Below, one piece after another: positions 5,112 to 30,252 of a stretch of DNA of 64,000 nt; within the stretch, counting starts at the first letter, position 1, and each line of letters opens with the position of its first letter. The translations under genes were made by a program, and so were the position numbers. Below the pieces are notes generated by a model. It did no database searches. It was given only the letters and a program-made list of their open reading frames with translations, and had not been told where the DNA came from. The stretch is from positions 1,826,008 through 1,890,007 of the forward strand of contig OX639992.1 of assembly GCA_951828515.1 (NCBI GenBank), read 5' to 3'. This DNA comes from an uncultured Poribacteria bacterium. Its GTDB lineage: Bacteria > Poribacteria > WGA-4E > WGA-3G.

Positions 5112-5531
5112 ATGAAACCTTATGAATACGTCGAACACACGGCTGATATGGGACTACTGGTTAGAGGGAAAAGTCTGCCTAATCTTCTGAAAAACGCGGC
5201 ACAGGGACTCTTTGAAACGATAGCGGTCGTGGATACAATTGATGAGACAGACTCGGTCGAGATCCACCTTACGGCTGAATCTGTGGAAGATCTCTTCGTC
5301 GGATGGCTTGACGAACTCATCTTTCAGCACGAAACGAAGGAGATATTTTTTAAACGCGCCGACATCAAAGACTGTAGTGAAACAGAGGTATCAGCGACGG
5401 TCTACGGTGAACCGACAAATTTCGATAAACACGAGGTTTACACCGAAATTAAGAGTGTTACGTATCATCAGTTGCAAGTCGTGCGAAAGTGTGATGGTAG
5501 CTGGTTTGCTCAGGTTATTTTCGATCTCTGA
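5112..5531 (+). CDS. archease
   Basis: N-terminal YEYVEHTADMGL is the archease signature (HTAD) and the size is ~140 aa. GGAG sits 8 nt upstream of the ATG at 5112; the ORF track start at 5097 is the alternative. Confidence 0.8.
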   Translation: MKPYEYVEHTADMGLLVRGKSLPNLLKNAAQGLFETIAVVDTIDETDSVEIHLTAESVEDLFVGWLDELIFQHETKEIFFKRADIKDCSETEVSATVYGEPTNFDKHEVYTEIKSVTYHQLQVVRKCDGSWFAQVIFDL

Positions 5532-18945: not shown

Positions 18946-19240
18946 AGAAGGGTCGTTGTTTTTTAGGATGTCTATGTATTTTTAGGATTTACCATAGTTA
19001 TGAAGGAAGAAGAGGCACAGACTAACAGTCTATGCTACGAATATCAAAATTTCTACACAGATATCGCCCCGCTGAGGCTTTAGCGTATTAGCGTTTTCTC
19101 ATTCGTAATTTACCAGAGATGTTCATTTTTTGCAAGGAATTTGGCTAAGAGCGGGTGTGTAAAATTTTGCCAGAAGATTGGGTTGGAAGGGTGGAAACTT
19201 GGAAGCGGAAAGTGTTGGTTGTCAGCGTCAGGTCAATTGT

Positions 19241-19267
19241 GTAAGTCCTAAGATCTTCAGGACTTAC
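19241..19267. repeat. perfect hairpin GTAAGTCCT-aagatcttc-AGGACTTAC built from the MITE TIR sequence
   Basis: 9-bp stem with a 9-nt loop; the arms are the TIR motif in inverted order. Confidence 0.5.
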
Positions 19268-19313
19268 GCAAAATGAAGATTAAGAATTTAATCGGGTAAT
19301 GCGGGTATTAATT

Positions 19314-19358
19314 GTCTGAATCAGGATTTTCAGGATTCAAGGATTTTCAGGATTATAG
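19314..19358 (+). repeat. CAGGATT-array repeat copy 1 (TGTCTGAATCAGGATTTTCAGGATTCAAGGATTTTCAGGATTA)
   Basis: A ~44-bp element holding four CAGGATT half-sites; also present at 48515 and 49552. Confidence 0.6.
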
Positions 19359-19420
19359 AACCTCTTTGATTGAGAACTTTCCTTTATAGAATTATCCAAA
19401 TATTTTATTAGGCTTCATAT

Positions 19421-19569
19421 TGCGTAAAGCAGCAATATATTTCACCCAAAAATGCCTCGCAGTGAGAGTATTTCAGTTATTTAACCCCCTAAAGAATCAA
19501 CGGTATGAATGCCTTATGGCATTCCCCGCCCCTTATCAGGGGGACTTCAAGAGGAAGTGTGTAAGTCCT
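19421..19569. repeat. MITE-family member (right TIR TGTGTAAGTCCT intact; internal module shared with 33112 copy)
   Basis: TTAACCCCCTAAAG...CCCCTTATCAGGGGGACTTCAAGAGGAAGTGTGTAAGTCCT parallels the 33112..33231 element. It overlaps the last codons of the nucleotidyltransferase gene. Confidence 0.45.
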
Positions 19570-19573
19570 AATC

Positions 19574-20251
19574 CTAAAAAAGTTGCTGGGCTGCCTGGAG
19601 GCGTTCGGGAGAGCCGATATCTATCCAATCGGGGTCGGTTTTAAGAACATGAAGGTTTTCTAATTTCGGAAGGACATCGTAGGAGAGAGAAAACACGTCG
19701 CTATCGGGAAACGATCGAGCAATTTTGCTGTTGAAGAGGTAGACACCGGCATTGATATACCCACTTTGGTATGTGGTAGGTTTTTCCAGGAATGCCGTAA
19801 TCTGCCCTGTATCCGAAGAGATGATTTCACCATAAGGACGGGTGTCATCCACCCAAACAGATAGCAGTAAACCTGCCATGTCCTCTCGAAATGTAGATAC
19901 CATTTCGTTGAGCGAGAAATCTCGCCACAGGACATCCCCGTTCAACACAAAGAACGGGGAACTCTGTATGTACCGCATTGCGTTTTTGATAGCACCCCCG
20001 GTGTCAAGTTTTTTATCTTCTTTACAATAGCGAATGGAAATGCCATTGTAAGACTCTCCGATGGTGTATTGGAGCACATCATGGAGGTGCCCAGTCGCGA
20101 GGATGAGTTCTTGGACTCCAACTTCCTTCAGGAATTCACACTGCCATTGTAGAATAGAACGGTTTTTGATTTTTAGGAGAAGTTTGGGGGTATGTTTGGC
20201 GGTGGCCCCCAGGCGAGTCGCATGTCCACCGCATAAAATGATTGCTTGCAT
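19574..20251 (-). CDS. sugar-phosphate nucleotidyltransferase (NDP-sugar pyrophosphorylase family)
   Basis: MQAIILCGGHATRLG N-terminal nucleotide-binding motif; 225 aa. Confidence 0.75.
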   Translation of the reverse strand: MQAIILCGGHATRLGATAKHTPKLLLKIKNRSILQWQCEFLKEVGVQELILATGHLHDVLQYTIGESYNGISIRYCKEDKKLDTGGAIKNAMRYIQSSPFFVLNGDVLWRDFSLNEMVSTFREDMAGLLLSVWVDDTRPYGEIISSDTGQITAFLEKPTTYQSGYINAGVYLFNSKIARSFPDSDVFSLSYDVLPKLENLHVLKTDPDWIDIGSPERLQAAQQLF

Positions 20252-20269
20252 AAATCTATCACCCTTGGT

Positions 20270-20296
20270 GGCGAGGTTAGGAAACCTCGCCAGCGG
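20270..20296. repeat. REP-like hairpin GGCGAGGTTAGGAAACCTCGCCAGCGG
   Basis: Same family; sits between the cytochrome-fusion gene and the nucleotidyltransferase gene. Confidence 0.65.
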
Positions 20297-20443
20297 TTGA
20301 ATGGTCCAGAATCTAAAGCGGTGTTGGCTTCGGGTTCTCTGAGGGTCCAGGCATCGGTTTGGGATCTGGAATGGGCTTCACGATTCCCATTTTCCAACTC
20401 ATAATTTTTCCTCCTTTCTAAAAAATGCATCTGTTTGCGGATT

Positions 20444-22294
20444 TTATTGACACGGTGTGCCGCTTGCCCGCAACAGCTGGTTTGCTCGAAATTGGTGGTT
20501 ATCAACTAAAATCGTAGGAGAGGCTCTAATGCCCAATTCCGCGGCACGTTTTATGTTCTCTCGGAAAAGTTGTTCTGCTTCCGGACTGTCAAATAGTGCT
20601 TGAATCTTCGCGACATCAATGCCGTATTTCTCAGCACAGTCCTCCCAACTCTTGTCCAGTTTTTTGCCGCGGCACAAAATATAGTCGAGATACTTATCAG
20701 GATACTCTCTCGCTATCAGTAACTGCCGAATGTTCTCTGCCACTTCGGGGTAGCCGTGTAGACTGGTGAACGGTGTTACCTCTTGGAGAGAAACAGTCTC
20801 TTTCTCTTGGGCGATAAAGCGGAGTTTAAAGTCAATTTTATCGCCAAACTCCTTCACGATCGGAATAATTTTCTCCTCCGCCTGAACACCGAATGGACAG
20901 TAACTCATTACAAAAAGTTCCAAGGTCGGTTTTCCCATTCGGGAAACCCGAGATGTCAATAATTCCTCAAGGTTCATCGGTTGGCGGCTGTGGTCCACAT
21001 CTTTGGTGTGGAGTGCTACCACTTCTGCAAACCCAGGCGAATGTTTTGTGTCGTGGCACGTAAGACAGAGCGATGTCTCAGCGGCGCGTCGGATATTCTC
21101 TTTCTTCGGATTGCCGACGTGTTGTTTGCCGGGACCGTGGCACGTTTCACATTGCACACCCTTAAAGGTCGATGTCTCATCACCAATCTGAAAACCTGTC
21201 TGGTAACCGAAGCCGGTCGTATGACAGGAAACACAATTCGGATTGAAGTATCGCTCTTTTTTCAACAGCGTTTCAAAAGCGAAAGCATGCCGTGTTGCAG
21301 ACCACTGGAGATATTCTTGCTCATGGCACCGCTGACAGGCAGTCGCTGATACATATCCGTTTTGCGGATCTTGTTCCAGTGGTTGTTCGGCAAAAAGGGG
21401 TTTGTGTTCAGACGATTGGGCAACCTCGCGGTAAAAATCGGTGAGCAACTGGCGCACGGATTCATCTTCTGGGACATCCCCGGTCAGTGCAAGTTGTGCG
21501 GCATGGTGTTGGGTTAGTTCACCGTCTGCATTCACCCAGAGTGCCAAAAAACCGAGTGTTTTCCCCTCAGATGTTGAACCTGCCCAAATCGGTGCGTTCA
21601 TCTGTTGAGTGGGTTCCACCTCTTCAGGACTGATGATGACATCGATATTAGGATGTTCCGTTGAGTTGGGTGTCCCTAAGGCAATCATCAGATTTGTATT
21701 TGGAAACTCTCGCTCAGTTGAAACGGGAACAACGGCAATTGAGAGTTCACCAGCAGTTTGAAGAATAGACGGTTGAGCGTAGGCGTGATTCTCATCAAGA
21801 AATGGGAATGATGCCGCAGCACGTCGCTCGATGAGATACGCATCTCCATAATTGAGGTCGTTTTGACTCAGCGCGATAGCGTCGTATCCCATTATGGACA
21901 TCGCTTTTAGATTTACCTGACACCTCTGTGTATCTATATCCTCGGTGCCATCGAAAATATCTCCAGCGTCAACCAAGAGCGTTGGAACGCCTTGTTGGCG
22001 GATTTGTGATATAAGGAAAGCACGCCTTGGCAAGCCACCGGCTTGTTCTTGATAGCATCCACACGGTTCCAGATGGCTTTTCGTGGCACCTGTATAGAGT
22101 ATCACGACAGAAGGTGGATCTTCACCTTCAAAGAGTGCGATAACGCTTTCAAAGGTTTCACCAATCGGTTGCCGTGCCTGTTGCTTGATTTCCTGAATCT
22201 GTTGCTGTCTGCGGGATTCCGCCCAATGTGTATATAGTGGTGGGACCCCGATAACAAGCGTTAGTAGAATTAAAGTGACGATAGCAAGCTTCAT
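20444..22294 (-). CDS. multidomain secreted/membrane-anchored protein: degenerate 5'-nucleotidase/metallophosphatase-like domain + tetraheme cytochrome c + C-terminal CPFG domain
   Basis: N-terminal hydrophobic anchor. VVILYTGATKSHLE...LLVDAGDIFDG...SQNDLN follows the 5'-nucleotidase pattern (ILHTNDHHS...LLDAGDQFQG...GNHEFD) with the His/Asp ligands replaced. Four CxxCH motifs (CQRCH, CVSCH, CETCH, CLTCH). C-terminal ~200 aa has SYCPFG. Its start is 2 nt from the upstream gene stop. Confidence 0.6.
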   Translation of the reverse strand: MKLAIVTLILLTLVIGVPPLYTHWAESRRQQQIQEIKQQARQPIGETFESVIALFEGEDPPSVVILYTGATKSHLEPCGCYQEQAGGLPRRAFLISQIRQQGVPTLLVDAGDIFDGTEDIDTQRCQVNLKAMSIMGYDAIALSQNDLNYGDAYLIERRAAASFPFLDENHAYAQPSILQTAGELSIAVVPVSTEREFPNTNLMIALGTPNSTEHPNIDVIISPEEVEPTQQMNAPIWAGSTSEGKTLGFLALWVNADGELTQHHAAQLALTGDVPEDESVRQLLTDFYREVAQSSEHKPLFAEQPLEQDPQNGYVSATACQRCHEQEYLQWSATRHAFAFETLLKKERYFNPNCVSCHTTGFGYQTGFQIGDETSTFKGVQCETCHGPGKQHVGNPKKENIRRAAETSLCLTCHDTKHSPGFAEVVALHTKDVDHSRQPMNLEELLTSRVSRMGKPTLELFVMSYCPFGVQAEEKIIPIVKEFGDKIDFKLRFIAQEKETVSLQEVTPFTSLHGYPEVAENIRQLLIAREYPDKYLDYILCRGKKLDKSWEDCAEKYGIDVAKIQALFDSPEAEQLFRENIKRAAELGIRASPTILVDNHQFRANQLLRASGTPCQ

Positions 22295-22296
22295 TG

Positions 22297-23445
22297 TTAA
22301 AAAAACCTATTTATAAGGGAGATTATCCCGAGGTGAAAGGGACCTTTACAGAGCACTGTTAACAATCCGCCGAATGTAATAACAGGTGCAAAACGAATCG
22401 CGGGTTGAATCCGAATCTTGTTATCAAAGTGTGCAAACGCGTTTTCTTTAACTAAACTCTGCAATTCACAGATTGTTTCGGCGGAAAGCCCGACTGGATC
22501 AGTTGTTATGAGCTCGGCACCTTGGCGTTCATTTCTATCCATCTGTTTCTCATAATGGGCACGACCATCCTCGCCTTCCTTTTTGACGATGTGTTCACTG
22601 AGGATCATCCCTACTTGGAGGTGTGACACTTCAATTATTCGATCAAATGCCACACTCGCTAACTGAAGCACGAGCTGCTTCGCTACCACAAAAATGAGTA
22701 GGTAGAAGCCTACAGAAAAGGCAATTCCTACCAGCAGCAGCCCGATGGAGGGGGCAGATTTCAGCATCAACCACCCGCTGAAAAATAAGATGACAACAAC
22801 AGCAGTTGGCGTTTTCAGCAAGGGACCCAAAACCTTTTGCATACCGGCAAAAACGAACAGGACTAATACGAGTCGCATCACTTGATCCAACTGCCAACCC
22901 AAACTATTGAAAAGGTAGGTAAGTCCTGCTCCAATAAGGATAAACTGAAGCAAACCATAGAGTTTCTCTAACAGGGAATCCCGATCAACGGAGGATTTGA
23001 TGAGTTGAATGAGCACTGCCCCTGTCCCCCGGACCCTGATTAACTTTACAATGAGGTAGCCTATTGCCACGATTGTGTAGGGAATGATGATATTGAGTGC
23101 CAATACTACCGGTGGAAACATTGATATCTCTTGTATAGGACCAAACCACCATGAAGGTAGTATTAAACAAAGCCCCCAGAATAACTTAGAGTCGCCGGGT
23201 GAAAAGACACCAAACGTATAGAGTCCGATGGCGATCGCACCACTAACCACAAATAGGATTGCAGCGTTCAAAGGAGTCGTAAGCCCCATAAAACAACCCG
23301 TTATTTGACCGAGGGTGCCTGCGTAAATGAGGCACATTGAACAGAGATTTGGTATTTTGTGGGTCTTTATGTCTGCATAACTTGCATAACCACAGAAGGT
23401 AAGAGCTATAGATAGAAGAACAGTCTCATAAATGAATGTGTTCAC
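22297..23445 (-). CDS. A24-family prepilin peptidase-like membrane protein with long C-terminal extension
   Basis: Both catalytic Asp motifs of A24/TadV/CpaA peptidases are present: ADIKTHKIPN (D-x5-IPN) and FSPGDSKLF (GxGD-KL). The ORF is 382 aa against ~170 aa for CpaA, with extra TM helices and a soluble C-terminal region. GTG start with a GGAAG RBS. Confidence 0.6.
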   Translation of the reverse strand: MNTFIYETVLLSIALTFCGYASYADIKTHKIPNLCSMCLIYAGTLGQITGCFMGLTTPLNAAILFVVSGAIAIGLYTFGVFSPGDSKLFWGLCLILPSWWFGPIQEISMFPPVVLALNIIIPYTIVAIGYLIVKLIRVRGTGAVLIQLIKSSVDRDSLLEKLYGLLQFILIGAGLTYLFNSLGWQLDQVMRLVLVLFVFAGMQKVLGPLLKTPTAVVVILFFSGWLMLKSAPSIGLLLVGIAFSVGFYLLIFVVAKQLVLQLASVAFDRIIEVSHLQVGMILSEHIVKKEGEDGRAHYEKQMDRNERQGAELITTDPVGLSAETICELQSLVKENAFAHFDNKIRIQPAIRFAPVITFGGLLTVLCKGPFHLGIISLINRFF

Positions 23446-23595
23446 AAAAACTTCCTATGATAATAGGAGGGTATTAGTAAACAATGATGGGTGCTTGTGT
23501 TTCCTTAATAAAATAAATTGTACCATCATTGATTTCAAAATACCCGCCATGTCTTTTACACCAAAAGATAGAACTTTAATGCTTACCTTTGATCA

Positions 23596-23892
23596 TCAAC
23601 TCGAGCGACACACATTTATCACTTCGCGGATAACCCTTGTGACAAAGTCGTTTTCAACTGGATCCCAAACCCAGTCTGTACCTACAGCGACTACCTTTTC
23701 TACATACTCATTCCCAGGCCCACAATCACCATCGTTATTGCACTCATCTGCATACGCTGATGAATTAAACACGATAGCTTGGACAAGCATGAGCCCTCCT
23801 GTAGCAATACTAAGAGTCAATGGTGTTTTTATACCTACACGGCCTTCCTCAGAATTGAGAAAGTCTTGAATTTTCGACTTGAGATTTTTCAT
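23596..23892 (-). CDS. small protein, paralog 1: conserved N-terminal leader (MKNLKSKIQDFLNSEEGRVGIKTPL), hydrophobic segment, Cys-rich C-terminus
   Basis: 98 aa. The first ~45 aa are ~80% identical to 25235..25522, and the shared C-terminal motif is C-[ND]-N-D-x-x-C-x-P-G-N. The upstream 60 bp is conserved between the two copies. Confidence 0.55.
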   Translation of the reverse strand: MKNLKSKIQDFLNSEEGRVGIKTPLTLSIATGGLMLVQAIVFNSSAYADECNNDGDCGPGNEYVEKVVAVGTDWVWDPVENDFVTRVIREVINVCRSS

Positions 23893-23986
23893 TCAGTTTT
23901 TCTTTTTTCTTTATACCGGCTCTCACACCCGGTCAGATTGACTCAACCTAGACTGTTTTGCAGGTTGATGCCTTCATAAAAGCACA

Positions 23987-24988
23987 CTATGGTTGTTTTA
24001 GATATCCCCACGACGTTGTCAGCAAATGAACTTGTGGGTGTACAGGCAACGCTCGTGGATCAAACCAACTCCCGAGGCTATTCACCCCTTGATGTGTCAG
24101 TTGCTTTGTCGATCGACGTGTGATATCAACTCTGAAGAGGTGTCTCTGCTCGTCAACCTTCTTTTCATAGAGGAGTTCAGTGCCATCAGGGCTCCACAGA
24201 GGGTGTCTCGCATATCCACCCGCTCTGGAGACGATCCGTTTCCTCTGTGTCCCATCGGGTCTCATAATATGAATCGTGGCCATATCGACTCGATCCAGAA
24301 GCCATGGAGCATCGGAAAAGGCGATCCATTCCGCGTCTGGAGACCATGAAGGGTACTTGTGACGTAAATCACCCAGAGACACTTTCCTCCGGTTCTGCCC
24401 TTCTGGCGAGATGAAAATGAGGGGGTAGCCTTCTCTTTCTTGTTGTGCGAAATTCGCTGCTGCAAAAGAGAAAACGATTCTCTCACCTTCTGGGGACCAC
24501 GCAGGTTGCCCGCCAAACTCCCCTGCGATAGCAAGCGGTTTTTCGTTTTTTCCATCAATGTCAGCTATGTAAATTGCCTCATCATGGTATCGGAAGTAAA
24601 CAATCCCTTTGCCATCAGGGCTCCATGCCGGTGCTGATCTGTCCGCTGCACTTCTAAAAACTCGTTTTACATTCTGACCATCCGCATCCATAAGGAACAC
24701 ATCTCGCTGACCGTCTCGATGAGACACAAAGAGAATATGTTCCCCTGTCGGTGAAAAGACGGGGGCATAATCGCGAGACAAGTGTTGTGTCAATTGGGTC
24801 ACTTCACTGCCATCGGGGTTCATGAGATAGATGTCCAGATTCCCTGTTATATCGGAGGCGAAGACAATCTTCGCTGTTTTCGGGGCTTTTGCCCAAGTCA
24901 GATCCAAAACACTGAAAAAAAACGATACGCAGAAAACGTAGAACATCAAAAGGGTAGGTTTCTTCATAAGTTTCTTTTCTGATAGCAA
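23987..24988 (-). CDS. TolB-like periplasmic beta-propeller protein
   Basis: Signal peptide, then repeated PxWSPDG blades (APVFSPTGEH, APAWSPDGKG, QPAWSPEGER, YPSWSPDAEW, HPLWSPDGTE). Start is either a TTG at 24988 with an AGGAG RBS or the ATG at 24967. Confidence 0.7.
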   Translation of the reverse strand: MLSEKKLMKKPTLLMFYVFCVSFFFSVLDLTWAKAPKTAKIVFASDITGNLDIYLMNPDGSEVTQLTQHLSRDYAPVFSPTGEHILFVSHRDGQRDVFLMDADGQNVKRVFRSAADRSAPAWSPDGKGIVYFRYHDEAIYIADIDGKNEKPLAIAGEFGGQPAWSPEGERIVFSFAAANFAQQEREGYPLIFISPEGQNRRKVSLGDLRHKYPSWSPDAEWIAFSDAPWLLDRVDMATIHIMRPDGTQRKRIVSRAGGYARHPLWSPDGTELLYEKKVDEQRHLFRVDITRRSTKQLTHQGVNSLGSWFDPRALPVHPQVHLLTTSWGYLKQP

Positions 24989-25234
24989 ACTATCACACTC
25001 CTAAAAATGGCATCGTCAGTGAGAGCCCGTGAAGTGAACACAGGGACCTTGCAGAGATACCACTGAGATCGTTTTTCCGTAAAAAAGACAAATAAAGTTA
25101 TCTTGACACAATACAACTTTATTTTTCAATCACCTGTAGGAACTTGGATAAAGTGGCTTGGCGAGATTTTTACAGCGGGCTTTCGCGCCACTTTTTGCCT
25201 CTCGCCAAGTCCGGGATGTTAGTTTCTAACATCG

Positions 25235-25522
25235 TTATTGGCAAAATGTATGTACTTCAACGATGTCTTCCACAACATGTCCTCGCATCGGACAAAAGAT
25301 CTCTTGAGTCCCAACAACAATTGTGACCGTTTGGCAGGTCTGGTTTCCAGGACATTGGGAGTCATTATCGCAAACTCTCCCAGCATCCGCATCGGGGGCG
25401 GTCATCGCTTGTGCAAGCAGAAGTCCACCTGTGGCGACACCGAGGGCTAGGGGTGTTTTCACGCCAACACGCCCTTCTTCGGAAGTCAGAAAGTCACTAA
25501 TACGCGACTTAAGATTTTTCAT
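25235..25522 (-). CDS. small protein, paralog 2: conserved N-terminal leader (MKNLKSRISDFLTSEEGRVGVKTPL), hydrophobic segment, Cys-rich C-terminus
   Basis: 95 aa, with an AAGGAG RBS and 5 Cys in the C-terminal half. Paralogous to 23596..23892. Confidence 0.55.
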   Translation of the reverse strand: MKNLKSRISDFLTSEEGRVGVKTPLALGVATGGLLLAQAMTAPDADAGRVCDNDSQCPGNQTCQTVTIVVGTQEIFCPMRGHVVEDIVEVHTFCQ

Positions 25523-25572
25523 TTGGTTTCTCCTTTCTTTTTACCGGGGATCTCAGACCCGGCAGGATTGAC

Positions 25573-27207
25573 TTAACCGGAACGGTTAAGCCCATTTCCA
25601 GCAAGAGGTACCTCGCGCTGGAAGTGCTTGAAAACAGATTCAACTTCGGCAGGGGTATGGTGTTTGGACAATACTTCTGCTAAAGCGTTTTCAAGGCGTT
25701 CAAATCGGTTTGTCTCCTGCCGATAGACACTCGGATAAGCCATTCCGGTTCTCGGGTCATAGTATCGGCAGAACAGGGGCTGACACAGGGATAGAGGTGT
25801 TGATGATTGGCAGCGTGTATTGGCACGCGCTGAACCTTGCTTAAACAGCCTCACAATCTCCTGAGCGGTGCGTTCCCACGTATATTTTGCTACGAATCCT
25901 TTTGCTACCTCCCTATACTTTTCGCATCTTTCCGTGTCACTTAGTAATTGGTTTATAGTTTCAGATAGATGCTGCATTGGAACCTCCAAATCGTTTCCTT
26001 TTCCAGCAGGACACTGGACAAGTACTCCCGCACCCTCAATTTCCGGCGGTAGTCCATATTTTGAAATCACAACTGCAGGGGTCCCGTATGCCATTGCTTC
26101 CAAAACCAATGAGGGGGAAGTCCCTGGTACAGCAGGGAAACAAACGACATCCAATGCTTGGAAGAATATGGGCAATACTGATCGCGTGCTTTCGTCACTT
26201 GCGTTGAAGATCACCAAGTTGCTCAGCGGATTCCGATATGCGTCAGCCAAAATTGAGTCGTAGACAAAGAAAACAAGGTGTGGGTTTGCAGTCGCGATAT
26301 CCAAGATATTCCGCATTCCAGCGTTTGGTTCAAATCCCGAAATAATACCCACCACGGGCCTCTGTGCAAACAATGGATTATCTGTAAGCACGGCAGCGTG
26401 TTGCTTGGCTAATTCTTTCCCGATAGGTTCAACGACATTGATGCCCTCTGAAATTGTGTGCACCCCTGCAGAGTCCACCCCGAATTCTGAGAGCCAGTCG
26501 GTAAGCCATGTAGCTTTGGACAGAATTAAATCTGTGGATTTCTGTGCCGTGTACGAATTCAAAGCAGATTCAAGGATTAAGGCTTGCATTCGTCTGTCAC
26601 TCTCTAAACAGCGAAGGACCGGCAGATTTTTAGAATAGTATAGGATATCGTGACTTGGAAATTGTCCAAGCAGTAAGATACCATCGTAGCCATCCATTGC
26701 ATACCAAGGGAACCAGAAATTTGAATGCTTCTCAATTATATCGCGATTTGATACGAACCCTCCAAAATCATGTCCCGGCTCCCCATTGATGTTGAAAGTT
26801 TCTAATTCCGCCAGTTTTGAGAGTGCTACCAATAGATGGAACCGGTTCTCGTTTGTTACAGGGTCCTGAACACTTTTTTCTGGAACAAACTGAAAGGGAA
26901 CAAGTAATTTGAGTCTCCTATCTGATTGAGAAGGTATGTAAGTGCTCCAAGTAGGACTTGACAACTGTCCCCGTTGACTGAGCCGTTGCAACCGTTCAAT
27001 GCCTTCAAAAATCTGCTCTATTTTGAATTTCGATCTTAACCTCTCAACAGTTGCATAAAGTGTTTCAGTGAGATTTTGATCAAGGAGTTCCCATTCCACA
27101 TCGTTAATTTCAACAATAGTATCAGATTCTAAGTCAGCGGCGTATTTTCGCCCCGACTGCTCAAATTTGCGGTGTTGATGCACTCGATATCTTGTTTCTA
27201 CCTTCAT
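25573..27207 (-). CDS. GT4-family (GT-B) glycosyltransferase with N-terminal PqqD/RRE-like domain
   Basis: C-terminal PAVPGTSPSLVLEAMAYGTPAVV is the GT4 E-x7-E region. The N-terminal ~90 aa (YAADLESDTIVEINDVEWELLD...IFEGIERLQRLSQRGQL) follows the PqqD pattern v.eLN..a..iw.l.dG..t..ei...l...y...eI..Dv..fl..L...GlL. Confidence 0.7.
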   Translation of the reverse strand: MKVETRYRVHQHRKFEQSGRKYAADLESDTIVEINDVEWELLDQNLTETLYATVERLRSKFKIEQIFEGIERLQRLSQRGQLSSPTWSTYIPSQSDRRLKLLVPFQFVPEKSVQDPVTNENRFHLLVALSKLAELETFNINGEPGHDFGGFVSNRDIIEKHSNFWFPWYAMDGYDGILLLGQFPSHDILYYSKNLPVLRCLESDRRMQALILESALNSYTAQKSTDLILSKATWLTDWLSEFGVDSAGVHTISEGINVVEPIGKELAKQHAAVLTDNPLFAQRPVVGIISGFEPNAGMRNILDIATANPHLVFFVYDSILADAYRNPLSNLVIFNASDESTRSVLPIFFQALDVVCFPAVPGTSPSLVLEAMAYGTPAVVISKYGLPPEIEGAGVLVQCPAGKGNDLEVPMQHLSETINQLLSDTERCEKYREVAKGFVAKYTWERTAQEIVRLFKQGSARANTRCQSSTPLSLCQPLFCRYYDPRTGMAYPSVYRQETNRFERLENALAEVLSKHHTPAEVESVFKHFQREVPLAGNGLNRSG

Positions 27208-27216
27208 TTTACAACC

Positions 27217-28926
27217 TCACGCTGTCGCTTGAATAAAGCCGTAGCATCTCGCAAGTATCGCCTTCGCGGTATCCTCATCTTCAATGAGTTCACTAAGTAT
27301 TGTTTCCACTTCCCTGACGGTATGTTCTTTGAGAAGGCTAATAACCAATCCGTCCTCAACTTTCTGGTTAAAAATTCCGTAGGGATTTACAAGCATTTCA
27401 TATCGCGAATTCATATTGAGTACTATGGACTTCTGTTCTAACCGTTTCTGATGGGTGTTCCAATAAGATGAAAAAAAAGTGTTGAGTCGATTTTCACAGA
27501 ACAATTTCTTTTTCCAATTGAGTTCCGAGAACAAGTCAAGGATACGTTGCGCTGTTTTCTTCCAAGTGAACGTTTGTGCGCGATTCAGTGCCTTTTGAGC
27601 GTAGGCTGCTCGTAGGGAATTGTCGTTTAGCAACAGATTTACCCCTTCCGAGAAGTCAAGTGGAGAAGCATAACTGGCAATGCTCGTGATGTCCTGTTCA
27701 AAGGGAACGGTAGGAACGATCAAACCCGCATCTCCCACGACAGAAGGAACACCATCAAAATCGGAGATGACCGGTGGTACACCGCACGCCATTGCTTCAA
27801 GCACTGTTAATCCGAATGTCTCCTCGCCAGACACGGAAGGGAAACAATATACATCAAAGGCGTTGTAAATCAGCGGTAATTTTTCACGATCATAGAATCC
27901 GATATAGATAAGGTTCTCGGGAATTTTTCGCTGTGCGTATCTACCCTCATTCTGACCCGCCTGCAAAAAGAGAAGATGTGGGTTGAGTTCTGCCAACTTC
28001 AGGTAGATAGATGCCCCCTTTTCAGGTTGGAAACGAGAGAGGTAACCCACGGTGGGCATTGTTTTAATTCGTTCATCTCCTACGCGTTTCGCGAGTTCAT
28101 TCTTTGCCTGTTGTTTATCCATTGGACGGAATAAGTTTAAATCTACACCATTTGCGACAGTATTGAAAACACCTTTATCCCAGACGAACTGGGAATAAAA
28201 TTCGCCAACAGAATCTGTAGGTGCCGTGAAGGCATCATAATCCCGTAGAGCAGTATAGTGTAACAATACAGAACGCACGTTTGTACCACCATGTCCACCC
28301 ACCGAATGCACTTGCATTAGAATCGGAGGGAGTTCGGGACATCGGAATAGTGGGATGAATCCTTCTTGGCTACGGTCAGAGTGGATTGTAAGGATACCTT
28401 CATATTGCGAAGCAATCTTTTCGGGTATACGCACCATGTCGAGCAGACTCAAATCCACTTCGTAGAAATTCTCGCCAAGTTTTCTGTTTTGTGTGCCAGC
28501 AAAGTGAAGTACTGCCTGGTCTTTCAGAGCCTGAATAGTATAAGCGAGAGCAACATGGGTCCCAGCACTGGTATTTTCTATGTCTGAAACAGCATCGGGA
28601 GCCAACCCCTGGACCACCAATAAAAAATGTGGACAATCTCCTTTTTTGAAAAATAATACGTCGGATTTCTCACCACGATTAAGGAGTAAACCCCGTCCCA
28701 CATATTCGATCAATGTCTCAAATGCTTCTTCAATATCACCATCACTGTAAGCGGTTTTTAATGTCTCTATAATTTCCTCTGTCGTCCGTGTCTCCGCGAG
28801 TTTCAGAACATCAGCAATCGCAGCAGAGATTTCGACGAGACTTGCTTTATCCAAGTCTGCGGCGTAAAGTCCACCATCTTTTTCAAAAATATGGAGTTGA
28901 TGAAGAGGTTTCGGAAAATCAAGCAT
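27217..28926 (-). CDS. GT4-family (GT-B) glycosyltransferase with N-terminal PqqD/RRE-like domain (paralog)
   Basis: PSVSGEETFGLTVLEAMACGVPPVISD is the GT4 motif. N-terminal LYAADLDKASLVEISAAIADVLKLAE.RTTEEIIETLKTAYSDGDIEEAFETLIEYVGRGLL is PqqD-like. Start uncertain (ATG at 28926 or TTG at 28950). Only 10 bp separate it from the downstream paralog. Confidence 0.7.
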   Translation of the reverse strand: MLDFPKPLHQLHIFEKDGGLYAADLDKASLVEISAAIADVLKLAETRTTEEIIETLKTAYSDGDIEEAFETLIEYVGRGLLLNRGEKSDVLFFKKGDCPHFLLVVQGLAPDAVSDIENTSAGTHVALAYTIQALKDQAVLHFAGTQNRKLGENFYEVDLSLLDMVRIPEKIASQYEGILTIHSDRSQEGFIPLFRCPELPPILMQVHSVGGHGGTNVRSVLLHYTALRDYDAFTAPTDSVGEFYSQFVWDKGVFNTVANGVDLNLFRPMDKQQAKNELAKRVGDERIKTMPTVGYLSRFQPEKGASIYLKLAELNPHLLFLQAGQNEGRYAQRKIPENLIYIGFYDREKLPLIYNAFDVYCFPSVSGEETFGLTVLEAMACGVPPVISDFDGVPSVVGDAGLIVPTVPFEQDITSIASYASPLDFSEGVNLLLNDNSLRAAYAQKALNRAQTFTWKKTAQRILDLFSELNWKKKLFCENRLNTFFSSYWNTHQKRLEQKSIVLNMNSRYEMLVNPYGIFNQKVEDGLVISLLKEHTVREVETILSELIEDEDTAKAILARCYGFIQATA

Positions 28927-29273
28927 ATTTTTTGTCTCTATATACAACAAACTGAATCAACACATTATTTTATTTCAACTCGAAGAATGCCAATTCTTGA
29001 AATAATGCTCTGTTACAACGACAGATATCTCTAACGAATTTTTTACGTATCACTCAGCATTCTCTATGTTGCAATTCCCGTGCCAATTGGAAGAACCCAC
29101 GCCGTTCGTGAATTTTAGGAAAATGGGACTACGCAAATTTTTCGCAGTCGGCAAATTTTGCATACCGAATCTCTGCAGATATTGCAGAGTTCCAAAAGGC
29201 AGTGGCACCGGCGCGCGATATATCGGGGACGAACACTATGGTAAACTTTAGAATTAACTGTACACTCTGCACC

Positions 29274-29294
29274 GGCGAGGTTAGAAACCTCGCC
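29274..29294. repeat. REP-like hairpin GGCGAGGTTAGAAACCTCGCC
   Basis: Same family. Confidence 0.6.
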
Positions 29295-29360
29295 TACCCG
29301 GGGAGGGGAGAATGTCTGCTTATTTTTTTGGTTTACCATAATAGCGACAAACTCCTTAAC

Positions 29361-29645
29361 CTACTCCCAATCCGCGTGTCCGCTATCAACCATCCTCCGA
29401 TTGACATACAAGTTATCCGAGTATCGCCAGACATGCGCGACTATGCGCCCATAAATATCGGTAGCTACCGACTTGATTGTGACGCGCTTCAGCTCTATGA
29501 GAAACTTTAGATAGGCAGTGGATATTTGTCCTTCGGGGGTGCTGTTTTCAGGGGCATTTATATTTGCCAAGCGAATGCGTTGAGTTGACGTGTTAAAGGT
29601 ATCACCATCAGTTACGGATGTGACGTAGGTTGAATATTCATGCAT
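29361..29645 (-). CDS. thermonuclease (staphylococcal nuclease-like) family protein
   Basis: VTDGDTF...IRLANINAPE...DIYGRIVAHV matches the SNase core (v.DGDT..irL.giDaPE....YGR.la.v). 94 aa with a GGAGG RBS. Confidence 0.6.
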   Translation of the reverse strand: MHEYSTYVTSVTDGDTFNTSTQRIRLANINAPENSTPEGQISTAYLKFLIELKRVTIKSVATDIYGRIVAHVWRYSDNLYVNRRMVDSGHADWE

Positions 29646-29659
29646 CTCTCTACCTCCTC

Positions 29660-29779
29660 AGGACTTACGCAAAATTGGCTTTCATGCCAAAATTGAAGGG
29701 ATATTCCCGAAGAAAGCGCAATGAATTGCGCTACTACGAACCAAAGACCGCATGAAAACGGGTCAACTGCGTAAGTCCT
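29660..29779. mobile_element. MITE-like element (~120 bp) with 12-bp terminal inverted repeats AGGACTTACGCA / TGCGTAAGTCCT
   Basis: It is bounded by perfect TIRs and is intergenic. A near-identical copy (~95% identity) lies at 53575..53694. Confidence 0.7.
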
Positions 29780-29947
29780 ACCTCCTTTTTGAAGGAGTAA
29801 CTTATAGGCGTATGTGGACGGAAACGGAATAGCCGCTATCCCTCACAAATTAGGGATTTATACTACAGTAACGCGGATAGGGTACAGGAAGGTTGCAGAA
29901 AGTGCAATTCTTTGGAAATGTTGTGTGGTTACAATAAATTTGTAATG

Positions 29948-29974
29948 TGGCGAGGTTAGGAAACCTCGCCAGCG
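29948..29974. repeat. REP-like hairpin GGCGAGGTTAGGAAACCTCGCCAGCGG
   Basis: Same family; identical to the 20270 copy. Confidence 0.65.
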
Positions 29975-30252
29975 GCGGTGGAGGTATCCGCTTCTCTTGA
30001 GATTGCCTCGCAGTAAGAGTTATTTGTAGGTTTTACCATAGATGAAGTCAACAATTTCTATTTTAGTGTTAGAGAAATTCGGTATACCGACGTGTGTAGA
30101 TTAAAATGTTTGTTCTATACGAAGCGGAGAATTTTTGAGGGAACTTAAGGAGCAGGAAGGTGGACGCGAAAGAAGGCGCGGTGTCGCGCCTTCCAACATA
30201 TCCATTTTTTTCGACTTGACAGAAGCGAGTAGAAATGCTACGTTACTGAATA

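What the first reader, a model, noticed from the sequence alone, without database searches (positions are those of the whole stretch)
23596..25590. Two paralogous ~95-aa proteins with Flp-prepilin-like leader, duplicated together with a ~60-bp conserved upstream region
The proteins at 23596..23892 and 25235..25522 share the following:
- MKNLKSKIQDFLNSEEGRVGIKTPLTLSIATGGLMLVQA versus MKNLKSRISDFLTSEEGRVGVKTPLALGVATGGLLLAQA, then diverge into different Cys-rich tails;
- an overall layout of a basic N-terminus, DFL.SEEG, Gly, then a hydrophobic helix, as in Flp prepilins (…F.KDE.GATAIEYGLIA…), though without the E/Y of the Flp motif;
- a conserved upstream DNA motif (TTGAGTCAATCTGACCGGGTGTGAGAGCCGGTATAAAGAAAA versus TTAAGTCAATCCTGCCGGGTCTGAGATCCCCGGTAAAAAGAAAGGAG, containing a CCGGGT-N7-9-CCGG hairpin), so the promoter or operator was duplicated along with the gene.

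Variable Cys-rich cores behind a conserved leader is the classic signature of precursor-peptide families (bacteriocins/RiPPs) and of pilin diversification.
Basis: seen in the sequence. Interest (0 to 1): 0.75.

Follow-up and report, generated by a model that had tools for sequence, protein, structure and literature searches.

The report
Leader-guided secreted cysteine-rich peptide cassette
The two small genes are members of a Poribacteria-specific family of precursor peptides (near-invariant leader, hypervariable disulfide-rich core). They sit in a conserved operon with two leader-binding glycosyltransferases and a prepilin-type peptidase, and each is preceded by a previously uncatalogued two-hairpin RNA element; together this looks like an undescribed kind of ribosomal peptide pathway.

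Summary
Both ORFs lie on the minus strand. They share a 40-aa leader (75% identity) and a conserved upstream stretch.

Together with 29 related loci (all named ones Candidatus Poribacteria) there are 60 distinct family members. Each has a near-invariant leader (MKNLKSKIRDFLNSEEG|RVGVKxPL…AQA…AxA) and a hypervariable core of 20-48 aa, mostly with 4 or 6 Cys.

The genes sit in a strictly syntenic operon:
- two GT4 glycosyltransferases, each with an N-terminal RiPP recognition element;
- repeated [small gene + PD40 propeller] modules;
- an A24 (prepilin-type) aspartic peptidase with an archaeal-type C-terminal domain;
- a UshA-like/multihaem/thioredoxin-like protein;
- a sugar nucleotidyltransferase.

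The RiPP recognition element matches the CteB RRE with profile E 6e-12, and CteB is the top Foldseek hit.

The "promoter/operator" is better read as a sense-strand RNA element of two hairpins. It shows strong covariation, occurs 70 times (E &lt;= 1e-4) always directly before a family gene or its remnant, and has no Rfam match.

Best reading (0.55): these are RiPP-like precursors that are recognised through the leader, glycosylated in the cytoplasm, cut by the A24 peptidase at the Flp-like SEEG|R site, exported, and disulfide-bonded.

They are not Flp pilins: the Flp motif, the Pfam match and the Tad machinery are all absent. I rate it a new variant of a known kind.

The parts
27217..28950 (-). 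RRE-fused GT4 glycosyltransferase (577 aa) with an intact E-x7-E motif (GEETFGLTVLE). The N-terminal ~90 aa form a RiPP recognition element.
   Evidence: Pfam Glycos_transf_1 at 84 bits. The profile of the N-terminal domain hits the CteB (5wgg_A) RRE, residues 6-81, at E 6.2e-12. The AF2 model has three strands then three helices, with block-mean pLDDT 85-94 across residues 11-80; its top Foldseek hits are CteB, TbiB1, lasso B1, PbtF-RRE and LynD. The EX7E motif is conserved in orthologs.
25573..27207 (-). Second RRE-fused GT4 paralog (544 aa). The first Glu of E-x7-E is replaced by Gly in all orthologs, so it may be a non-catalytic or altered partner.
   Evidence: Pfam Glycos_transf_1 at 39 bits. 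Its N-terminal domain aligns with that of GT577 in alignment A3, which hits the CteB RRE. PGT[SP][PL]S[LI]VLE in all orthologs matched by the motif search.
25520..25606 (-). 5'-UTR RNA element, copy B: hairpin 1 at 25570..25593 (overlaps the stop codon of the 544-aa GT), hairpin 2 at 25543..25563, Shine-Dalgarno AAGGAG at 25530..25535, ATG at 25520..25522.
   Evidence: Covariance-model hit at 70.6 bits, E 1.5e-13. Covariation statistics. Folding of the individual hairpins.
25235..25522 (-). Precursor B (95 aa): leader 1-17 (MKNLKSRISDFLTSEEG), RVGVK plus a hydrophobic segment, ADA at 46-48, and a core with 5 Cys.
   Evidence: Orthologs with the same core are found in L001 and L004.
23987..24988 (-). 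Periplasmic TolB-like PD40 beta-propeller (333 aa, own signal peptide, no peptidase domain). It is the partner gene of the small-gene module.
   Evidence: Pfam PD40 at 1e-24 and a partial match to NCBIfam TolB. [small + PD40] repeats 1-5 times per locus.
23890..23985 (-). 5'-UTR RNA element, copy A: hairpin 1 at 23943..23968 (larger loop), hairpin 2 at 23915..23933. There is no GGAG Shine-Dalgarno (AAAGAAAAAAG instead).
   Evidence: Covariance-model hit at 44.5 bits, E 2.5e-07. Folding; sequence.
23596..23892 (-). Precursor A (98 aa): same leader, AYA at 46-48, a core with only 3 Cys because the third scaffold Cys is Tyr. It may be a weakened copy.
   Evidence: P0001 (97% identity) also has Tyr at this position; P0002 (78% identity) keeps the Cys.
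22297..23445 (-). Polytopic membrane A24-family (prepilin/preflagellin-type, GxGD) aspartic peptidase with an Arc_PepC C-terminal domain (382 aa). It is the candidate leader peptidase.
   Evidence: Pfam Peptidase_A24 at 26.0 bits (gathering threshold 26.5) plus a weak Arc_PepC match. Of 31 homologs, 27 match Peptidase_A24 and 30 match Arc_PepC. D85 in PGDSKLF is invariant and D25 in YADIKTHKIPN is at least 90% conserved. The gene is syntenic in most of the related loci.
20444..22294 (-). UshA-like metallophosphoesterase / cytochrome c554 multihaem / DsbA-like thioredoxin-fold protein (616 aa) with a monothiol CP[FY]G motif. It is a conserved cluster member and a possible periplasmic redox helper.
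   Evidence: NF041198 at 220 bits; synteny; CPFG or CPYG in 26/26.
19574..20251 (-). Sugar-phosphate nucleotidyltransferase (225 aa), the likely supplier of the NDP-sugar donor.
   Evidence: Pfam NTP_transferase at 1.8e-30. Syntenic.
15858..18731 (-). ECF-type sigma factor fused to a membrane span and a BNR/sortilin propeller (957 aa). It is frequently adjacent to the cluster and is a possible regulator.
   Evidence: Pfam Sigma70_r2/r4, ECF, BNR and Sortilin. Adjacent in many loci.

Best explanation
The two genes encode precursor peptides of a lineage-specific, RiPP-like pathway for small, secreted, disulfide-rich and probably glycosylated peptides.

Proposed steps (all inferred from sequence and context):
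1. The near-invariant N-terminal ~17-25 residues are bound by the RRE domains of the two cytoplasmic GT4 enzymes. The 577-aa enzyme is catalytic. The 544-aa enzyme lacks the first Glu of EX7E and may be a partner or have altered chemistry.
2. These enzymes add sugar from an NDP-sugar made by the cluster's nucleotidyltransferase.
3. The segment RVGVK plus about 18 hydrophobic residues inserts into the membrane with the N terminus inside.
4. The co-encoded A24 aspartic peptidase cuts at the cytoplasmic face after the invariant Gly of F-L-x-S-E-E-G, as TadV and FlaK do with Flp prepilins and preflagellins.
5. The AxA motif that lies 0-4 residues before the first Cys is probably cut by signal peptidase I, releasing a 20-48-aa core.
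6. The core forms 2-3 disulfides in the periplasm.
7. Each core type comes with its own periplasmic PD40 propeller (binding partner, chaperone or immunity protein). The modules multiply, diverge and decay.

The ~85-nt two-hairpin RNA in front of every precursor gene acts in cis on the polycistronic mRNA. Processing or stabilisation, or control of translation, would let the precursor be made in excess over the enzymes.

Shown here: family architecture, synteny, RRE homology and fold, A24 motifs, RNA covariation.
Inferred: every biochemical step, the cleavage sites, the sugar and its acceptor, and the biological role.
For: - Family architecture: 60 distinct members have an invariant M1 K2 L4 K5 F11 L12 S14 E15 G17 R18 V19 G20 K22 P24 L25 and hypervariable cores. 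Cys counts are 6 (29 members), 4 (22), 5 (6), 7 (2) and 3 (1).
- Synonymous divergence within the leader argues for selection on the protein.
- RRE on both GTs: profile E 6.2e-12 to CteB residues 6-81. PqqD hits in 12/29 members. The AF2 model has the three-strand/three-helix topology, and its Foldseek hits are almost all RiPP RREs. CteB's N-terminal domain is the leader-binding RRE (PMC6231123).
- Leader subtype tracks GT subtype. Leaders of the form LRD[KR]F[RH][DE]FL occur in the five loci (L010, L011, L012, L014, L019) that also carry a second, divergent RRE-GT gene or pair downstream of them.
- A24 peptidase: both Asp motifs are conserved, the Pfam match is shared by homologs, and the gene is syntenic. 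A distant family member, P0114, also lies two genes upstream of an A24+Arc_PepC gene.
- The leader weakly matches the N-terminal region of the HxsA3 model in 25/26 members.
- No dedicated exporter is present in the operon.
- The hydrophobic segment plus AxA directly before the core fits Sec export.
- RNA element: 14 pairs, 93.7% of cells paired against 82% in shuffles (0/500), 95 compensatory cells against 29 (0/500), and slid controls at 62% or less. Of 72 matches at E <= 1, 70 have E <= 1e-4. All 70 are on the sense strand and immediately 5' of family genes or their remnants.
Against: - No modification, cleavage or expression has been observed.
- No conserved Ser/Thr (or other obvious acceptor) exists in the core, so the glycosylation site is unknown and the GTs could act elsewhere.
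- The window's own A24 protein scores just under Pfam's threshold. It has no PDB sequence match, and its AF2 model was unusable (pLDDT 44).
- Residues after the putative cleavage Gly (R-V-G-V-K) are charged. This is unlike known A24 substrates, whose hydrophobic helix starts at once.
- Two proteolytic sites (A24 and SPase I) on one leader is unusual, and only one of them may be used.
- Passage of a glycosylated peptide through Sec is not established.
- The thioredoxin-like domain is monothiol (CP[FY]G), so it is not a classical DsbA oxidase.
- Precursors of 70-100 aa with a signal-peptide-like segment are atypical for RiPPs.
Confidence: 0.55

Rival explanations
1. They are ordinary Sec-secreted small disulfide proteins, for example ligands, inhibitors or chaperoned partners of the adjacent PD40 propellers. 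The conserved N-terminal extension is merely a family-specific signal-peptide feature, and the glycosyltransferases act on a polysaccharide or another protein.
For: - The n-h-c layout with AxA 0-4 residues before the first Cys looks like a type I signal peptide.
- Mostly even Cys counts imply an oxidising compartment.
- The small gene is tightly paired with a PD40 gene.
- GT4 enzymes usually build glycans.
- No conserved acceptor residue is present in the core.
Against: - Both GTs carry an RRE, a peptide-leader-binding domain.
- The only conserved peptide leader in the operon is this one.
- Leader subtype co-occurs with GT subtype.
- Residues 1-25 are far more conserved than any signal peptide needs to be.
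- The A24 peptidase linkage persists in a distant relative.
Confidence: 0.17
2. They are Flp-like (type IVc) pilins or pseudopilins. After A24 cleavage they would be assembled into a glycosylated fibre or surface structure by machinery encoded elsewhere, with antigenic diversification of the exposed Cys-rich domain.
For: - The leader F-L-x-S-E-E-G followed by a hydrophobic segment resembles Flp prepilin leaders (sequence; the comparison with Caulobacter PilA is from my own knowledge).
- A dedicated A24 peptidase is present.
- There are multiple variable paralogs.
Against: - No Flp motif (E/Y) follows the Gly; charged R and K stand at +1 and +5.
- No Flp_Fap Pfam hit at E <= 10.
- No ATPase, platform or secretin gene appears among the ORFs of the window that were scanned, the called genes of L001-L004, or the blocks mapped in the other loci.
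- The hydrophobic segment is short and Gly-rich and is followed by AxA.
- RRE-fused enzymes are not part of any known pilus system.
Confidence: 0.1
3. The conserved upstream region is a DNA-level promoter or operator, duplicated with the gene, rather than an RNA structure.
For: - It lies directly 5' of each gene and contains a palindromic CCGG core.
- ECF sigma genes flank the cluster.
Against: - G-U pairs are frequent on the sense strand (for example 27 at pair 20-56 and 15 at pair 66-82), and they would be A-C mismatches on the other strand.
- 12 of 14 pairs show compensatory changes while the primary sequence of hairpin 1 changes completely.
- There is no sigma-70-like hexamer pair in the element.
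- In copy B, hairpin 1 lies inside and at the end of the upstream coding region of the same operon.
Confidence: 0.08

Closest known systems
Flp/Fap prepilins processed by TadV/CpaA (A24 peptidases of Tad pili)
   Same: - A short basic N terminus, an F-L-x-x-E-x-G motif ending in an invariant Gly, then a hydrophobic segment.
- A dedicated A24 aspartic peptidase encoded beside the substrate genes.
- Several paralogous substrates.
   Different: - No G/xxxxEY Flp motif and no Pfam Flp_Fap match.
- Charged residues follow the Gly.
- An AxA site and a Cys-rich variable domain follow.
- No Tad ATPase, platform or secretin genes.
- The peptidase has the archaeal-type Arc_PepC domain.
- RRE-glycosyltransferases are present.
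Glycocins (sublancin, glycocin F) and their sun-type clusters
   Same: - Ribosomal precursors with a leader.
- A dedicated peptide glycosyltransferase.
- Small disulfide-bonded products.
- Thiol-redox proteins encoded in the cluster.
   Different: - Glycocins use GT2 SunS-type enzymes without an RRE, a double-glycine leader and a C39-ABC exporter, and they occur in Firmicutes (my own knowledge).
- Here there are RRE-fused GT4 enzymes, an A24 peptidase, a Sec-like segment, PD40 partners, and the host is Poribacteria.
SCIFF/CteA-CteB (ranthipeptide) and other RRE-dependent RiPP systems
   Same: - The RRE of the GTs is homologous to that of CteB (E 6e-12; rmsd 2.2 A).
- The cores are Cys-rich.
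- The leader starts MK-x-[LI]-K.
   Different: - The catalytic domain is a GT-B glycosyltransferase, not a radical SAM/SPASM enzyme.
- The precursors are longer and carry a hydrophobic export segment.
RRE-glycosyltransferase fusions noted by RRE-Finder
   Same: An RRE fused to a glycosyltransferase, flagged as a possible new RiPP class (PMC7470986; PMC12710340 names PF00535 fusions).
   Different: - Those reports are bioinformatic listings only; the 2025 paper names PF00535 (GT2), whereas here the catalytic domain is GT4 (PF00534).
- Neither passage read here mentions an A24 peptidase, PD40 modules or the RNA element.
Archaeal class III signal-peptide proteins cut by FlaK/PibD/EppA
   Same: - The A24 + Arc_PepC domain architecture.
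- Gly at -1 and Gly at +3 of the putative site (the importance of these positions for FlaK is from my own knowledge).
- The substrates are often glycoproteins.
   Different: - The host is bacterial.
- Position -2 is Glu rather than Lys/Arg.
- The substrate is not a filament subunit or a binding protein.
- Glycosylation would be cytoplasmic and RRE-guided.
GtfA/GtfB of the accessory Sec system (serine-rich adhesins)
   Same: - A pair of GT4-type proteins, one with a degenerate catalytic motif.
- They act in the cytoplasm on a protein that is later exported and has an unusual extended, Gly-containing signal peptide (my own knowledge).
   Different: - No SecA2/SecY2.
- The substrates are tiny Cys-rich peptides, not serine-rich repeats.
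- RRE domains are present.

Membership tests
Flp/Fap pilin family (PF04964; TadV substrates) | Leader ending in Gly, followed at once by the Flp motif (xxxxEY) and a hydrophobic helix of about 20 aa | tested here: not met
   After G17 the sequence is R-V-G-V-K-[TSA]-P-L. No E at +5 or Y at +6 in any of the 26 aligned members.
Flp/Fap pilin family (PF04964; TadV substrates) | Match to the Pfam Flp_Fap profile | tested here: not met
   No hit for any of 26 members at E <= 10.
Flp/Fap pilin family (PF04964; TadV substrates) | Co-located Tad assembly genes (TadA ATPase, TadB/C, secretin) | tested here: not met
   None among the cluster genes and 10 further large ORFs of the window, nor among the called genes of L001-L004. 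The conserved blocks mapped in the other loci leave little room for them. The rest of the genome was not searched.
Flp/Fap pilin family (PF04964; TadV substrates) | Dedicated A24 prepilin peptidase next to the substrate genes | tested here: met
   Gene at 22297..23445. Peptidase_A24 matches in 27/31 homologs. D25 and D85 motifs are conserved.
RiPP precursor peptide (general definition) | Conserved leader with a variable core across paralogs and orthologs | tested here: met
RiPP precursor peptide (general definition) | Co-encoded modifying enzyme with a leader-binding RRE | tested here: met
   Both GT4 proteins. CteB RRE at E 6.2e-12. The predicted fold matches RRE folds.
RiPP precursor peptide (general definition) | Post-translational modification of the core and proteolytic removal of the leader | not testable with these tools
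   Needs mass spectrometry of expressed peptides. Only candidate enzymes are present.
Glycocins | SunS-type GT2 glycosyltransferase, double-glycine leader, C39-ABC exporter | tested here: not met
   The GTs are PF00534 (GT4). The leader has no GG/GA cleavage motif before the core. No ABC transporter is in the operon.
Peptidase family A24 (GxGD aspartic peptidases) | Two catalytic Asp residues in D-x-K-x-x-x-I-P-[ND] and G-x-G-D-x-K-[LF] contexts within a polytopic membrane protein; Pfam PF01478 | tested here: met
   YADIKTHKIPN and SPGDSKLF. D85 is invariant and D25 at least 90% conserved. The window protein scores 26.0 bits against a cutoff of 26.5; homologs reach E 5e-7, and many carry a precomputed PF01478 annotation. 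Activity was not tested.
Sec (type I) signal peptide | Positively charged n-region, hydrophobic h-region, c-region with small residues at -3 and -1 | tested here: inconclusive
   By inspection: RVGVK, then about 18 hydrophobic residues, then [TS]P-x-A-x-A 0-4 aa before the first Cys in most members. No signal-peptide predictor was available. The 17-aa acidic N-terminal extension is atypical.
HxsA3 (NF038309, His-Xaa-Ser system precursor) | Score above the curated cutoff (65 bits) and His-Xaa-Ser repeats | tested here: not met
   Best score 22.4 bits, confined to the N-terminal region of the model; no HxS repeats. The resemblance is in the leader only.
Any Rfam family (for the upstream RNA element) | Covariance-model match | tested here: not met
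   No match at E <= 1 in window 19000..30000, nor at the element copies in L010, L013 and L021.

The most novel reading that the evidence does not exclude
This is a new class of ribosomal peptide natural products with four unusual features.
- A prepilin-type (A24, archaeal-architecture) intramembrane aspartic peptidase serves as the leader peptidase.
- Tailoring is done by RRE-fused GT4 glycosyltransferases.
- Export uses a Sec-type segment built into the leader.
- Each hypervariable disulfide-rich core co-diversifies with a cognate periplasmic beta-propeller, in the manner of a toxin/immunity or ligand/receptor pair.

All of this would be controlled by a new family-specific structured 5'-UTR RNA. 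The system would be a diversifying arsenal or host-interaction repertoire of uncultivated symbionts of sponges and corals.
Probability: 0.35. Interest if true: 0.85.

Novelty: new variant of a known kind. Interest (0 to 1): 0.72.

Why it matters
- It would add a leader peptidase type (A24/GxGD) and an enzyme architecture (RRE-GT4) to RiPP biology. It would also show how a prepilin-like leader can be re-used for peptide maturation instead of filament assembly.
- The pathway is directly testable by heterologous expression, with about 60 natural core variants already available.
- It concerns Poribacteria, an uncultivated phylum. Several of the genome records are bins with sponge- or coral-style labels, and the molecules these bacteria use for interactions are largely unknown.
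- The two-hairpin 5'-UTR element is a well-supported candidate for a new cis-acting RNA family.
- In public annotation these genes are only 'hypothetical protein', or at most part of an unanalysed antiSMASH 'RRE-containing' region (PMC12795557).

Tried and rejected
- AF2 model of the A24 protein built from 31 homologs: pLDDT 44, so it was not used for fold search.
- Sequence and profile searches of the A24 protein against PDB: no hits.
- Rfam searches of the window region and of three related loci: nothing at the element. The only hit was an unrelated group II intron in L010.
- Sigma-70 promoter and terminator scan: no enrichment, and nothing in the element.
- Test of whether an upstream anti-SD sequesters the Shine-Dalgarno, closing a three-way junction. 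Mean pairing probability was 0.73 against 0.64 with a shuffled 5' flank (Wilcoxon p 0.002, 31/49 higher). Window copy B showed no effect (0.63 against 0.71). I treat this as inconclusive.
- A third helix between CTGGA[AG]ATGG and the inter-hairpin AATC: examined by eye, no consistent pairing, dropped.
- Pfam and NCBIfam on the small proteins: only sub-threshold Cys-pattern hits (EB, WAP, defensin-like, Myxo_Cys_RPT) and the weak HxsA3 leader hit.
- The srp/proteusin RiPPs reported as highly expressed in Poribacteria are a different family, with an NHLP leader and YcaO.
- Literature searches combining Poribacteria or RiPP with 'prepilin peptidase' found nothing relevant.
- S-glycosylation of a spare Cys was considered. 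Most cores have an even Cys count, so it cannot be general.
- The search for the GT N-terminal domain in the large protein database returned only 7 fragments. The profile was therefore built from loci instead.

Full report
**Observation**

Both small ORFs are present at the given coordinates, on the minus strand: A at 23596..23892 (98 aa) and B at 25235..25522 (95 aa).
- tblastn of each against the whole window finds only the other copy: E 2e-23 for the full length, and 75% identity with E 2.6e-18 for the first 40 residues.
- Within the 40 leader codons, 15 are identical, 15 differ synonymously and 10 differ non-synonymously. The leader is therefore held by selection on the protein, not by recent gene conversion.

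**The family**

A search of 5.8 billion proteins gave 29 relatives; those with names are Candidatus Poribacteria. A profile search of 1.84 billion cluster representatives gave only 87 clusters.

A scan of one genome per species gave 25 loci, 24 titled as Poribacteria MAGs (one as an uncultured bacterium) and several of them bins with sponge- or coral-style labels. In these loci plus the window I found 68 family ORFs, 60 of them distinct.

Leader. It is almost invariant: M1 K2 L4 K5 F11 L12 S14 E15 G17 R18 V19 G20 K22 P24 L25 are identical in all 26 aligned members. The order of elements is:
- MK(N)[NL][LK]..KI..F[LV].SEEG;
- [RK]VGVK;
- about 18 hydrophobic, Gly-rich residues ending in AQA;
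- a short [TS]P-containing linker ending in A-x-A;
- 0-4 residues later, the first Cys.

Core. It is 20-48 aa, acidic and hypervariable, but built on C-x5-C-x5-C...C. Cys counts are 6 (29 members), 4 (22), 5 (6), 7 (2) and 3 (1). Mostly even counts fit disulfide bonding outside the cytoplasm.

Copy A of the window is the 3-Cys exception: Tyr replaces the third scaffold Cys. It also lacks a GGAG Shine-Dalgarno.

**Context**

All neighbours are on the same strand, and the order is conserved across the related loci:
1. GT4 glycosyltransferase, 577 aa.
2. GT4 glycosyltransferase, 544 aa.
3. [small gene + PD40/TolB-like periplasmic propeller], repeated 1-5 times.
4. A 382-aa polytopic membrane protein matching Peptidase_A24 and Arc_PepC.
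5. A UshA-like / cytochrome c554 / thioredoxin-fold protein.
6. Often further small genes.
7. A sugar nucleotidyltransferase.
8. Frequently a sigma factor fused to a BNR/sortilin propeller.

No ABC exporter and no pilus-assembly genes occur in the operon or among the other large ORFs that I scanned.

**The glycosyltransferases carry RiPP recognition elements**

Both GTs have an extra ~100-aa N-terminal domain.
- A profile of 29 such domains hits the N-terminal residues 6-81 of CteB (PDB 5wgg) at E 6.2e-12. In CteB this is the RRE that binds the CteA leader by extending its beta-sheet (PMC6231123).
- Pfam PqqD is hit weakly by 12 of 29 members.
- An AF2 model of the 577-aa enzyme's domain has three strands followed by three helices, with block-mean pLDDT 85-94 across residues 11-80.
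- Its best PDB fold matches are CteB (rmsd 2.2 A), TbiB1 with leader, TigE, lasso B1, McbB, the PbtF RRE, LynD and TruD.
- The 577-aa enzyme keeps the GT4 E-x7-E motif. The 544-aa paralog has Gly in place of the first Glu in every ortholog the motif search matched.
- Loci whose leaders are of the subtype LRD[KR]F[RH][DE]FL (L010, L011, L012, L014, L019) are exactly the ones in this set that carry a second, divergent RRE-GT gene or pair downstream of those genes. That pattern is expected if the RRE reads the leader.

RRE-glycosyltransferase fusions have been listed by genome mining as uncharacterised (PMC7470986; PMC12710340, which names PF00535). I found no description of this GT4 system.

**The peptidase**
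- The window protein scores 26.0 bits against a Pfam threshold of 26.5.
- Of 31 homologs, 27 match Peptidase_A24 and 30 match Arc_PepC.
- The two catalytic contexts, YAD25IKTHKIPN and SPGD85SKLF, are conserved: D85 is invariant and D25 at least 90%.
- A distant family member, P0114 (leader ...ISDFFTQEDGNVGRK...), lies two genes upstream of a homologous A24+Arc_PepC gene on an unrelated contig. The leader-peptidase linkage is therefore older than the Poribacteria expansion.
- The leader segment F-L-x-S-E-E-G followed by a hydrophobic stretch resembles the region around the cleavage Gly of Flp prepilins (my own knowledge). G17 is kept even in the distant relatives.
- The Flp motif itself is absent, and there is no Flp_Fap match.

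**The upstream element is an RNA structure**

Aligning 56 upstream regions shows two hairpins followed by AGAAAGGAG-N7-8-ATG.
- RNAalifold predicts 14 pairs, 12 of them with compensatory changes.
- On the named structure, 93.7% of cells pair, against 82% in shuffles (0/500 reach the observed value).
- There are 95 double-sided changes against 29 in shuffles (0/500).
- Sliding the partners drops pairing to 62% or less.
- Frequent G-U pairs point to the sense-strand transcript.
- A covariance model finds 72 matches at E <= 1 in the window plus 25 loci. Seventy have E <= 1e-4; all of these are on the coding strand and each is immediately 5' of a family gene. Twelve were not in my first ORF list, and these precede intact, truncated or fused copies.
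- The window has exactly two: 25520..25606 (70.6 bits) and 23890..23985 (44.5 bits).
- In copy B, hairpin 1 overlaps the stop codon of the 544-aa GT.
- Rfam 15 has no match, and the element is absent from the distant locus L030.
- A sigma-70 scan gives no support for a promoter.
- A possible anti-SD pairing is at best weak.

**Interpretation**

The best-supported reading is a RiPP-like pathway:
1. The leader is recognised by the RRE-GT4 enzymes and the peptide is glycosylated in the cytoplasm.
2. The hydrophobic segment inserts into the membrane.
3. The A24 peptidase cuts after G17, and signal peptidase probably cuts after AxA.
4. The disulfide-rich core is released into the periplasm, beside a module-specific PD40 propeller.
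5. The RNA element probably raises or tunes precursor output from the polycistronic mRNA.

None of these steps has been observed. The acceptor residue is unknown. The thioredoxin-like domain is monothiol. Charged residues after the putative A24 site are atypical.

The rivals are weaker. They are plain secreted proteins whose neighbouring GTs act on something else, Flp-like pilins, and a DNA operator. They must ignore, respectively, the RRE domains, the missing pilus features, and the RNA covariation.

**Novelty**

The parts are known kinds: leader/core precursors, RREs, GT4 enzymes, A24 peptidases and 5'-UTR hairpins. I did not find the combination described, and the family has no curated model; NCBIfam gives only a weak leader match to HxsA3. 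An antiSMASH 'RRE-containing' region has been tabulated for a Poribacteria MAG without analysis (PMC12795557). I rate it a new variant of a known kind, with a fair chance that it defines a new RiPP class.

Noticed in passing
window 23987..24090 (C terminus of the PD40 protein); L013, L019, L021; L030 62..292: The PD40 partner proteins end in a conserved tail, WFDP..ALPV.PQ..LLTT[ST]WG..K. In the distant locus L030 the ORF just upstream of the family member, which has no such PD40 tail region, ends in TTTWGQIKSEPF. This may be a C-terminal sorting or recognition signal.
   Followed up: partly
window 23596..23985: Copy A looks weakened. The third scaffold Cys is replaced by Tyr (3 Cys in all), there is no GGAG Shine-Dalgarno, and the RNA-element score is lower (44.5 bits against 70.6).
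   Followed up: partly
L011 11971..12100; L018/L023 ~5190..5370; L022 13771..; L028 8014..; L006 9805..9903; L011 10240..10332: Many RNA-element copies are followed by truncated, frameshifted or PD40-fused leader remnants. Short relics of the 3' ends of the 544-aa GT or of the UshA-like gene precede some small genes. This indicates repeated duplication of [upstream gene end + element + small gene], followed by decay.
   Followed up: partly
window 20444..22294: This is an unusual three-part protein: a UshA-like metallophosphoesterase, a cytochrome c554-type multihaem region and a DsbA-like fold. Its thioredoxin motif is monothiol, CP[FY]G, in 26/26 orthologs. It scores 220 bits against NCBIfam 'UshA-like (seleno)protein' (cutoff 275).
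   Followed up: partly
window 15858..18731: A 957-aa ECF-type sigma factor (regions 2 and 4) is fused through a membrane span to a BNR/sortilin propeller. It lies next to the cluster in many genomes, and some genomes have a separate small ECF sigma gene upstream of the first GT.
   Followed up: no
L010 6979..7055: A group II intron domain (RF00029, 54.6 bits) lies between a small gene and its PD40 partner.
   Followed up: no
P0085 (341 aa): A repeat protein carries five copies of VIREFLNSEEGRVLL, nearly identical to leader residues 8-19. It could be coincidence or a shared binding motif.
   Followed up: no
window 37638..40430 and 40570..43368 (+); 43521..45422 (-): Two tandem ORFs of about 930 aa on the plus strand were not examined. 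Next to them is a GmrSD-type restriction endonuclease.
   Followed up: no
window 5542..7464: A large DUF6785/DUF6784 protein (E 1e-151) of unknown function.
   Followed up: no
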